From NCBI GenBank assembly GCA_963750945.1, contig CAVVSH010000015.1, forward strand, positions 554,215 to 618,214: a stretch of DNA of 64,000 nt. The letters are read 5' to 3'. This document shows positions 33,975 through 34,014 of this stretch, piece by piece (positions within the stretch are counted from its first letter, which is position 1; every line of letters begins with the position of its first letter). The notes beneath the pieces were generated by a model. That model was given only the letters and a program-made list of their open reading frames with translations. It had not been told where the DNA came from and ran no database searches. Both the position numbers and the translations under genes were made by a program. The DNA is from an uncultured Actinomycetota bacterium. GTDB lineage: Bacteria; Actinomycetota; UBA4738; HRBIN12.

Positions 33975-34014
33975 CAAGCCAAATATCAAGCTAAATATCA
34001 AGCCAAATATCAAG
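33975..34014 (+). repeat. AT-rich 12-bp tandem repeat, CAAGCCAAATAT / CAAGCTAAATAT / CAAGCCAAATAT plus a partial CAAG, abutting the atpE Shine-Dalgarno GGAGG
   Basis: Seen directly: three near-identical 12-nt units (one C/T difference) fill the atpB-atpE intergenic region. About 30% GC locally against about 70% genome-wide. SD at 34014-34018 and atpE ATG at 34024. Confidence 0.7.

What the first reader, a model, noticed from the sequence alone, without database searches (positions are those of the whole stretch)
33975..34014. AT-rich 12-bp tandem repeat (3 copies) forming the entire atpB-atpE spacer and running into the atpE Shine-Dalgarno
In a genome of about 70% GC, the 50 nt before atpE are about 30% GC and consist of CAAGCCAAATAT, CAAGCTAAATAT and CAAGCCAAATAT, then CAAGGAGG and ATG. 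atpE must be translated in roughly 10-fold excess over other atp cistrons. A/U-rich translational enhancers that bind ribosomal protein S1 are known upstream of atpE in E. coli. A repeated, structure-free A-rich leader here is a plausible convergent solution. Repeat copy number could tune c-subunit stoichiometry.
Basis: seen in the sequence. Interest (0 to 1): 0.55.

Follow-up and report, generated by a model that had tools for sequence, protein, structure and literature searches.

The report
Fast-evolving A-rich repeat before atpE
The three-copy, AT-rich 12-base repeat in front of the ATP synthase c-subunit gene is real. It is a young, fast-changing expansion that most close relatives lack, so at most it fine-tunes c-subunit translation rather than being needed for it.

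Summary
Window 33975-34010 holds three 12-nt units (CAAGCCAAATAT, CAAGCTAAATAT, CAAGCCAAATAT). A fourth CAAG runs into a perfect Shine-Dalgarno sequence (SD), AAGGAGG, at 34012-34018. This is the best tandem repeat and the lowest-GC, most A-rich stretch in a 69% GC window. One correction: atpE starts at ATG 34024, not at the out-of-frame ATG at 34020.

Comparison with about 100 related atp loci from uncultured soil Actinomycetota changes the picture. The usual atpB-atpE spacer is only 12-19 nt, just the SD. Longer spacers occur almost only in a narrow clade whose AtpE protein is identical or nearly so (98.8-100%). There they range from 14 to 53 nt and are built from CAAG-led, A-rich, T-poor units that look like decayed duplicates of the ribosome-binding segment. 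The nearest relative (atpB 96.4% nt identity) also has three units, but they have diverged. The repeat part differs faster than synonymous sites, and the window's units are homogenised.

Folding shows an unstructured leader. Neither copy number nor spacer length changes the predicted accessibility of the ribosome-binding site. I found no promoter, terminator or Rfam match.

Best reading: a slippage-born variable-number repeat that lengthens an unstructured A-rich leader, possibly modulating atpE initiation. It is dispensable. Interest is low to moderate.

The parts
33176..33970 (+). atpB (F-type ATP synthase subunit a, 264 aa), stop TAG at 33968-33970
   Evidence: ORF list. Pfam PF00119, E = 4.6e-48. 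Orthologues are called as 264 aa in relatives.
33971..34023 (+). The whole 53-nt atpB-atpE intercistronic spacer: A 49%, C 19%, G 17%, T 15%, GC 36%
   Evidence: Folded alone it gives -4.4 kcal/mol, z = 0.06 against shuffles.
33975..33986 (+). Repeat unit 1, CAAGCCAAATAT
33987..33998 (+). Repeat unit 2, CAAGCTAAATAT (one C>T difference)
33999..34010 (+). Repeat unit 3, CAAGCCAAATAT
34011..34023 (+). Ribosome-binding segment CAAGGAGGAATGG. It opens with CAAG, a partial fourth unit. The SD core AAGGAGG is at 34012-34018, 5 nt before the start codon. This segment is the probable template from which the repeat units derive.
   Evidence: It is conserved as ...CAAGGAGGAATGG in nearly all long-spacer alleles (one, L089, has ...GGACTGG). 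Unit-versus-RBS alignments give 10-12 matching positions over 15-16 alignment columns.
34020..34022 (+). Out-of-frame ATG, 1 nt after the SD. It opens an 11-codon ORF and is not the atpE start.
   Evidence: Reading.
34024..34269 (+). atpE (subunit c, 81 aa), start ATG at 34024
   Evidence: Pfam PF00137, E = 8.7e-17. tblastn alignments to relatives begin at this ATG. The identical protein is on record in 696 blocks of the public collection.
34270..34279 (+). atpE-atpF spacer (10 nt), used as a control. It has only two main alleles (10 or 16 nt) in the close clade.

Best explanation
The feature is a young variable-number tandem repeat in the untranslated leader of atpE. The steps are as follows.

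- Shown: the ancestral atpB-atpE spacer in this group of soil Actinomycetota is about 15 nt, essentially a perfect SD.
- Shown: in one narrow clade the spacer has been lengthened repeatedly by CAAG-led units.
- Inferred from unit-to-RBS similarity: these units arose as tandem duplicates of the ribosome-binding segment CAAGGAGGAATGGAT, which then lost their SD.
- Inferred: slipped-strand mispairing on the CAAG/ATCAAG micro-repeats adds, removes and homogenises units.
- Shown: the window's lineage now carries three almost identical AAATAT-type units.
- Inferred, not tested: at the RNA level the array places about 40 nt of A-rich, G-poor, structure-free sequence directly upstream of a strong SD. 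Such a tract would act as a landing or standby platform for the 30S subunit, through protein S1 or simply through single-strandedness.
- Inferred, not tested: it also moves the SD out of the footprint of ribosomes terminating at the atpB stop codon, so atpE initiates independently of atpB.

The effect can only be modulatory, because relatives with the identical c subunit manage with a 15-nt spacer.
For: - The repeat is real and non-random.
- Outgroups and most relatives have 12-19-nt spacers made of TAG/TGA + 1-5 nt + AAGGAGG. The spacer is 20 nt or less in 68 of 89 loci.
- Loci with AtpB at least 85% identical, whose AtpE is 98.8-100% identical (identical in most), carry spacers of 14, 15, 16, 17, 19, 27, 29, 30, 32, 33, 34, 40, 52 and 53 nt. 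The longer ones (27 nt and more) are built of CAAG-led units.
- As a control, the neighbouring atpE-atpF spacer has only two main alleles, 10 or 16 nt.
- Window versus L001: atpB nt identity is 96.4% and synonymous third positions are 92.6% identical, yet 9 of 40 repeat-part columns differ (Fisher p = 0.006).
- Units within the window match at 11-12 of 12 positions. Units within L001 match at 8 of 12, and positional orthologues at 9-10 of 12. This points to homogenisation or re-amplification in the window's lineage.
- L001 unit 3, CAAGGGGAATAT, matches the RBS segment CAAGGAGGAATGGAT at 12 of 15 aligned columns. Other units match at 10-11.
- All long alleles are A-rich (38-49%) and T-poor (3-15%) in a genome with 15.5% A and 15.5% T. 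This fits a constraint on composition at the RNA level rather than on sequence.
- The spacer is unstructured, and the SD is unpaired in the MFE fold.
- Literature: A/U-rich tracts upstream of the SD enhance translation cooperatively with strong SDs and are linked to S1 and standby binding (PMC2176067). ACA-containing enhancer sequences, including an ACAA repeat, are also known, and the E. coli atp intercistronic enhancer is cited among other ACA-containing enhancers (PMC3879156, its ref. 35). In E. coli, atpE carries 10.7-fold more ribosomes than atpB with a coupling factor of 1.01, meaning independent initiation (PMC4538824).
Against: - No expression data exist.
- Most relatives, including ones with the identical AtpE, lack the tract, so any benefit is small or conditional.
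- The repeat sequence is not conserved; only its composition is.
- In silico, RBS opening energy does not fall with 0-6 copies and does not correlate with natural spacer length (rho = 0.16, p = 0.14; for the SD alone rho = 0.04, p = 0.70).
- A-richness could be inherited from the purine-rich seed rather than selected.
- The window's spacer contains no ACA motif, only CAA.
- S1 binding and the properties of this organism's S1 are untested.
Confidence: 0.5

Rival explanations
1. The repeat is an effectively neutral product of replication slippage. It is tolerated because the perfect SD alone sets atpE translation, and it has no measurable effect on expression.
For: It is absent from most relatives and from genomes with the identical AtpE. 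It diverges faster than synonymous sites. Length turnover is rapid and units are homogenised, as is typical of VNTRs. Copy number and length have no predicted effect on accessibility.
Against: All long alleles, including those with strongly diverged units, keep the same strand-specific composition: A 38-49% and T 3-15% in a 69% GC genome. A distant lineage (L051) independently evolved a 49-nt C/A-rich spacer at the same site. The neighbouring spacer is stable. Upstream A-rich tracts are known to act cooperatively with strong SDs (PMC2176067).
Confidence: 0.35
2. The single-stranded AU-rich tract is an endonuclease (RNase E/J-type) processing site. Cleavage would separate atpE-and-downstream mRNA from atpB mRNA and give the segments different stabilities.
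For: The tract is unstructured and AU-rich in the window. In E. coli the atpE segment is 2.4-fold more abundant at the mRNA level than atpB (PMC4538824). From memory, not checked here: RNase E-dependent cleavages of E. coli unc mRNA have been described.
Against: The homologous long alleles in relatives are almost U-free and 47-59% GC, so AU-richness is not a shared property. No conserved cleavage motif is visible. Most relatives have no room for such a site.
Confidence: 0.07
3. The tract acts at the DNA level. It could be an internal promoter for atpE and downstream genes, or an AT-rich binding or nucleation site for a nucleoid protein such as Lsr2.
For: It is the only segment below 40% GC in 64 kb.
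Against: No sigma-70-like -35/-10 pair was found on either strand in 32300-34400 except one far upstream at 32489-32518. By inspection the + strand of the spacer has no TANNNT hexamer. Relatives' long alleles contain almost no T, so they cannot carry a -10 element. A 40-bp tract is short for Lsr2-type silencing (general knowledge).
Confidence: 0.03
4. The repeat is an assembly or sequencing artefact, or it encodes protein as an N-terminal extension of AtpE (KPNI/KLNI repeats).
For: The exact AAATAT allele was not found in any other contig. The atpE frame stays open through the spacer, and 12 nt equals 4 codons.
Against: A 36-nt array is shorter than any read. An independent MAG has the same three-unit, 52-nt layout (L001 = L094). 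There is no in-frame ATG, GTG or TTG in the spacer. Relatives' spacer lengths differ by non-multiples of 3. The SD sits 5 nt before ATG 34024.
Confidence: 0.03

Closest known systems
E. coli atpB-atpE intercistronic translational enhancer (McCarthy, Schairer and Sebald 1985; A/U-rich, S1-linked enhancers)
   Same: The position is the same: between the subunit a and subunit c genes, immediately 5' of the atpE SD. The length is similar, 46 nt in E. coli against 53 nt here. Both are low in G, A/U/C-rich and unstructured. In both cases the downstream gene must be made in roughly 10-fold excess and is initiated independently (PMC4538824).
   Different: There is no sequence homology. The E. coli spacer is not a tandem repeat. 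The tract here is absent from most close relatives and evolves faster than synonymous sites. The E. coli SD (GGAG) is weaker than the perfect AAGGAGG here. Enhancer activity and S1 binding are demonstrated only for E. coli.
ACA-motif translational enhancers upstream of the SD (Yang et al. 2014, PMC3879156; from memory, the GcvB-targeted C/A-rich elements of Sharma et al. 2007)
   Same: Both are C- and A-rich, G- and U-poor tracts next to the SD. Both work through repeated short motifs with no strict positional requirement. The long alleles of relatives (for example AGACCAAGCCGAAGGAAACCAAGGAGG) fit this composition.
   Different: The defining ACA triplet is absent from the window's spacer, which has seven CAA and no ACA. 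No sRNA partner is known. Function is untested.
Intergenic VNTR or minisatellite loci generated by slipped-strand mispairing
   Same: Units lie head to tail. Length is polymorphic among close relatives. Units are homogenised within an array. The repeat is confined to one locus.
   Different: The unit is short (12 nt), copy number is low, and the array sits inside an operon directly abutting an RBS from which it appears to derive. No rapid on/off (phase-variable) behaviour is implied.
Mycobacterial interspersed repetitive units (MIRU), which are intercistronic tandem repeats in actinobacterial operons (from memory: Supply et al. 1997)
   Same: Both are tandem repeats located in intercistronic spacers of operons in high-GC Actinomycetota, with variable copy number.
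   Different: MIRUs are 40-100 bp, dispersed at dozens of loci, and carry short ORFs overlapping the flanking stop and start codons. Here the unit is 12 nt, found at a single locus in 64 kb, and non-coding.

Membership tests
A/U-rich (S1/standby) translational enhancer of the E. coli atpE type | Lies in the untranslated leader immediately upstream of the SD of a highly translated gene | tested here: met
   Repeat at 33975-34010, SD at 34012-34018, atpE ATG at 34024
A/U-rich (S1/standby) translational enhancer of the E. coli atpE type | A/U-rich, G-poor and free of stable secondary structure | tested here: met
   A 49%, T 15%, G 17%. The spacer folds at -4.4 kcal/mol, z = 0.06. The 170-nt context gives z = -0.39, with the SD unpaired in the MFE fold.
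A/U-rich (S1/standby) translational enhancer of the E. coli atpE type | Its presence raises translation of the downstream cistron (deletion lowers it) | not testable with these tools
   The only proxy is predicted RBS opening energy, which does not change systematically with 0-6 copies or with natural spacer length.
A/U-rich (S1/standby) translational enhancer of the E. coli atpE type | Bound by ribosomal protein S1 or the 30S subunit | not testable with these tools
A/U-rich (S1/standby) translational enhancer of the E. coli atpE type | Maintained by selection among relatives | tested here: not met
   Absent from 68 of 89 related loci. It is variable among genomes with identical AtpE and diverges faster than synonymous sites. 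Only the A-rich, T-poor composition is shared.
ACA-motif translational enhancer | One or more ACA triplets near the SD | tested here: not met
   Reading: the 53-nt spacer has no ACA. It has seven CAA.
Slippage-generated VNTR/minisatellite | Head-to-tail units of high identity, more than chance would give | tested here: met
   TRF score 73, the best in the window. Three matches against 0.2 expected.
Slippage-generated VNTR/minisatellite | Unit number or length polymorphism among close relatives while the flanks stay conserved | tested here: met
   Spacers of 14-53 nt with AtpE identical or nearly so (98.8-100%) and the atpB 3' end conserved. The control spacer is stable.
Slippage-generated VNTR/minisatellite | Units within an array are more alike than positional orthologues (concerted evolution) | tested here: met
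   Within the window 11-12 of 12, against 9-10 of 12 to L001 orthologues
MIRU-type intercistronic repeats | 40-100-bp units dispersed at many loci, with ORFs overlapping the flanking stop and start codons | tested here: not met
   The unit is 12 nt, with no other copy in 64 kb. Spacer lengths are not in register with any frame.
Internal promoter | -35/-10 hexamer pair, or an actinobacterial TANNNT -10 element | tested here: not met
   No site in or near the spacer. By inspection there is no TANNNT on the + strand.
Known structured RNA element (Rfam) | Match to a curated covariance model | tested here: not met
   Only one tRNA in the whole window at gathering threshold. Only sub-threshold chance hits in 33850-34150.

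The most novel reading that the evidence does not exclude
The atpB-atpE spacer of this soil actinomycetotal clade is a natural, evolvable translation rheostat. Duplicates of the atpE ribosome-binding segment would be repeatedly added, decayed into A-rich non-SD units and removed by slippage. Each length allele (15 to 53 nt) would set a different ratio of independent to atpB-coupled initiation, and so a different c:a synthesis ratio. Selection would act on leader length and composition rather than on sequence. This would explain why long alleles recur on different backgrounds and why an unrelated lineage (L051) built a C/A-rich spacer at the same site.
Probability: 0.15. Interest if true: 0.5.

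Novelty: new member of a known kind. Interest (0 to 1): 0.27.

Why it matters
If the tract does modulate initiation, this clade offers a ready-made allelic series: leaders of 15, 27-34, 40 and 52-53 nt in front of a c-subunit gene whose product is identical or nearly so. That series could be used to ask how leader length, A-richness and distance from the upstream stop codon set subunit stoichiometry in a high-GC bacterium. Rules for translation initiation in such organisms are far less studied than in E. coli. If the tract is neutral, it is simply a hypervariable marker useful for strain typing in these uncultured soil Actinomycetota. Neither outcome changes current understanding of ATP synthase expression.

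Tried and rejected
- **Window's own source.** I looked for it, or near-identical strains, through the exact AtpB protein. Nothing is on record.
- **Cluster representatives.** Look-ups of the AtpB cluster representatives P0001, P0002 and P0004 each gave only one extra contig, so a population-level copy-number spectrum could not be built.
- **Metagenome scan.** A scan with the conserved atpE start gave only 5 contigs, none with the AAATAT allele.
- **Accessibility hypothesis.** Constrained partition-function folding of a synthetic 0-6 copy series and of 89 natural loci showed no trend. I do not claim that the repeat opens the RBS.
- **Promoter or terminator.** Rejected.
- **Known RNA family.** Rejected.
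- **Coding N-terminal extension.** Rejected. There is no in-frame start codon, and relatives' spacer lengths are out of register.
- **ATG at 34020 as the atpE start.** Rejected, because it is out of frame.
- **MIRU-type element.** Rejected.
- **Literature.** Searches for an open-access primary description of the E. coli atpE enhancer found only papers that cite it. That point rests on PMC3879156's citation of McCarthy et al. 1985 and on general knowledge.
- **NJ tree.** The tree is distorted by three loci with frameshifted atpB (L085, L090, L092), so I did not use it to count independent expansions.

Full report
**What is in the sequence**

The window is 68.9% GC. The atp operon reads in the usual actinobacterial order:
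- a glycosyltransferase family 4 gene at 31168-32409
- a PF09527 (AtpZ-like) ORF
- an unassigned membrane ORF
- atpB at 33176-33970
- atpE at 34024-34269
- atpF at 34280-34882, then atpH and atpA

Between the atpB stop (TAG, 33968-33970) and the atpE start lie 53 nt: AAAC, CAAGCCAAATAT, CAAGCTAAATAT, CAAGCCAAATAT, CAAGGAGGAATGG.

Several measures show the repeat is not chance:
- TRF scores the array (33975-34014, period 12, 3.3 copies) at 73, the best in the window.
- The unit occurs nowhere else in 64 kb. Chance expectation is 0.2 matches, and no shuffle reaches 3.
- The tract contains the lowest-GC 50-mer (32%) and the most A-rich 40-mer (52% A) of the window.

One correction matters. The ATG that follows the SD directly (34020) is out of frame and terminates after 11 codons. 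The atpE start is ATG 34024, 5 nt after AAGGAGG (34012-34018). Every relative aligns from this position.

**What relatives show**

A scan of species-representative genomes with AtpB returned 80 loci, all from uncultured, mostly soil, Actinomycetota MAGs. I extracted the atpB-atpE spacer from each. I added 18 more loci from a metagenome scan with the conserved atpE start and from look-ups of the exact AtpE and of close AtpB proteins.

The dominant and evidently ancestral state is a tiny spacer. It consists of the stop codon, 1-5 nt, AAGGAGG, 5-7 nt and ATG. The spacer is 20 nt or less in 68 of 89 analysable loci, with a mode of 15 nt, for example TAG-ACAAGGAGGCATCAC-ATG.

Longer spacers occur almost only in the window's immediate clade (AtpB at least 85% identical, AtpE 98.8-100% identical and identical in most). 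Lengths there are 14, 15, 16, 17, 19, 27, 29, 30, 32, 33, 34, 40, 52 and 53 nt. The longer ones (27 nt and more) are built of CAAG-led units in front of an invariant CAAGGAGG, followed in nearly all by AATGG (L089 has ACTGG). Examples are:
- AAAC-CAAGCCAAAGGAT-CAAGGAGG (L005)
- AGAC-CAAGCCAAAGG-CAAGCCGAAAGG-CAAGGAGG (L084)
- AGAC-CAAGAAGAC-CAAGGC-CAAAGGAT-CAAGCCAAAAGAA-CAAGGAGG (L087)
- AGAC-CAAGCCGAATC-CAAGCCAGATAT-CAAGGGGAATAT-CAAGGAGG (L001, the nearest relative)

Identical alleles recur in independent assemblies: L082 and L085 are identical, and L007 and L083 are nearly so. The variation is therefore biological rather than assembly noise. As a control, the adjacent atpE-atpF spacer has only two near-invariant main alleles, of 10 or 16 nt, across the same loci. 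Long atpB-atpE alleles occur with both, which implies recombination or recurrent change.

**Tempo and origin**

Between the window and L001, atpB is 96.4% identical and synonymous third positions are 92.6% identical. The repeat part of the spacer differs at 9 of 40 columns (Fisher p = 0.006). L096 is about equally close, yet has a single unit in a 30-nt spacer.

The window's units match each other at 11-12 of 12 positions. L001's units match at 8 of 12, and positional orthologues match at 9-10 of 12. The window's array has therefore been homogenised or re-amplified recently, which is classic tandem-repeat dynamics.

The units resemble the ribosome-binding segment itself. L001 unit 3 (CAAGGGGAATAT) matches CAAGGAGGAATGGAT at 12 of 15 aligned columns, and other units match at 10-11. 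I infer that the array began as tandem duplication of the RBS segment. The upstream copies then lost the SD, and slippage on the CAAG/ATCAAG micro-repeats did the rest. This origin is inferred, not shown.

**Is there evidence of function?**

*Evidence in favour.* Every long allele, however diverged, is A-rich (38-49%) and T-poor (3-15%) on the mRNA strand, in a genome with 15.5% of each base. A distant lineage (L051, AtpB 59% identical) independently carries a 49-nt C/A-rich spacer at the same site. The tract is structure-free:
- The spacer alone folds at -4.4 kcal/mol, z = 0.06.
- The 170-nt context gives z = -0.39, with the SD unpaired in the MFE fold.

The arrangement also parallels E. coli. 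There the 46-nt atpB-atpE spacer TTTACCAACACTACTACGTTTTAACTGAAACAAACTGGAGACTGTC is the textbook intercistronic enhancer. The supporting literature is as follows:
- A/U-rich tracts upstream of the SD act cooperatively with strong SDs and are linked to S1 and standby binding (PMC2176067).
- ACA-motif enhancers work without strict positioning (PMC3879156).
- E. coli atpE carries 10.7-fold more ribosomes than atpB and is initiated independently, with a coupling factor of 1.01 (PMC4538824).

*Evidence against.* The same c subunit is expressed from 15-nt spacers in sister genomes, so the tract cannot be required for c-subunit excess. Its sequence is unconstrained.

Predicted RBS opening energy shows no trend. 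It is 9-13 kcal/mol across a synthetic 0-6 copy series with upstream context included, and lower only when all upstream sequence is removed. It does not correlate with natural spacer length in 89 loci: rho = 0.16, p = 0.14, and for the SD alone rho = 0.04, p = 0.70.

The purine richness might also be inherited from the seed rather than selected.

**Other readings**

- No sigma-70-like promoter or intrinsic terminator lies in or near the spacer. The almost T-free alleles of relatives could not carry a -10 element.
- No Rfam family matches.
- A coding extension of AtpE is excluded. The spacer has no in-frame start codon, and spacer lengths differ by non-multiples of three.
- A processing-site role cannot be tested. 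It is not favoured, because AU-richness is peculiar to the window's allele.
- An assembly artefact is unlikely. The array is 36 nt long, and an independent MAG has the same three-unit layout.

**Verdict**

It is best described as a young, slippage-driven variable-number repeat. It extends an A-rich, unstructured leader in front of a perfect SD.

It plausibly works like the E. coli atpE enhancer, by giving the 30S subunit a single-stranded landing site. It would also take the SD out of the footprint of ribosomes terminating at atpB. But it fails the conservation test for being a maintained element, so any effect must be modulatory.

My probabilities are:
- about 0.5 for a modulatory role in translation
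- about 0.35 for near-neutrality
- the remainder for processing, DNA-level or artefactual explanations

It is a new member of known kinds (A-rich leader, intergenic VNTR). Interest is low to moderate. Its main value is as a natural allelic series for testing leader-length effects on subunit stoichiometry in high-GC bacteria.

Noticed in passing
window 32489-32532: A promoter-like site, TTGACG-18 nt-TAGAGT (32489-32518), is the only one in 32300-34400. It ends 11 nt before ATG 32530. That ATG would begin the PF09527 (AtpZ-like) ORF at the 72-aa length called in relatives. This is a candidate atp operon promoter giving a very short or near-leaderless 5' end.
   Followed up: partly
window 20795-20838: A second C/A-rich, G/T-poor intergenic tract, CCAACACCCACACCCACACATCAC (TRF: ACCCAC x3.3), lies just after the stop of ORF 19458-20792. 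Its composition resembles the long atpB-atpE spacers of relatives.
   Followed up: no
window 34020-34055: An out-of-frame ATG lies 1 nt after the SD and 4 nt before the real atpE start. It opens an 11-codon ORF ([11 protein letters not shown]). The AATGGATG arrangement is shared by all alleles with the GGAATGG tail, which is nearly all long alleles, and is absent from the short GGCATCAC alleles.
   Followed up: partly
L001-L098 (close clade), atpE-atpF spacer; window 34270-34279: The atpE-atpF spacer has two main alleles, 10 nt (TGAGGGGCGGACGATG) and 16 nt (TGAGGAGGGGAGACCGCTCGTG). Long and short atpB-atpE alleles are found with both, which suggests recombination within the operon or recurrent spacer change.
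   Followed up: partly
L051 3781-3829: A distant relative (AtpB 59% identical) has an independent 49-nt C/A-rich atpB-atpE spacer, CCCACCCACACCAGAGAACCGAGTGAAGGAACCAGAGGAGG..., while its neighbours in the tree have 12-16 nt.
   Followed up: no
L088, L090, L091, L092, L095: Several long ENA contigs have atpB split into two or three gene calls, or fused ORFs. These are probably indel errors in long-read assemblies. They distort tblastn-based coordinates and the NJ tree.
   Followed up: no
window 32517-33179: The ORF between the AtpZ-like gene and atpB has no Pfam hit. It is 220 aa as the longest ORF here and 139-150 aa as called in relatives. It sits where actinobacterial operons carry an AtpI-like membrane protein.
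   Followed up: no
window 11346-11417 (-): A single tRNA gene is the only Rfam match at gathering threshold in the 64-kb window.
   Followed up: no
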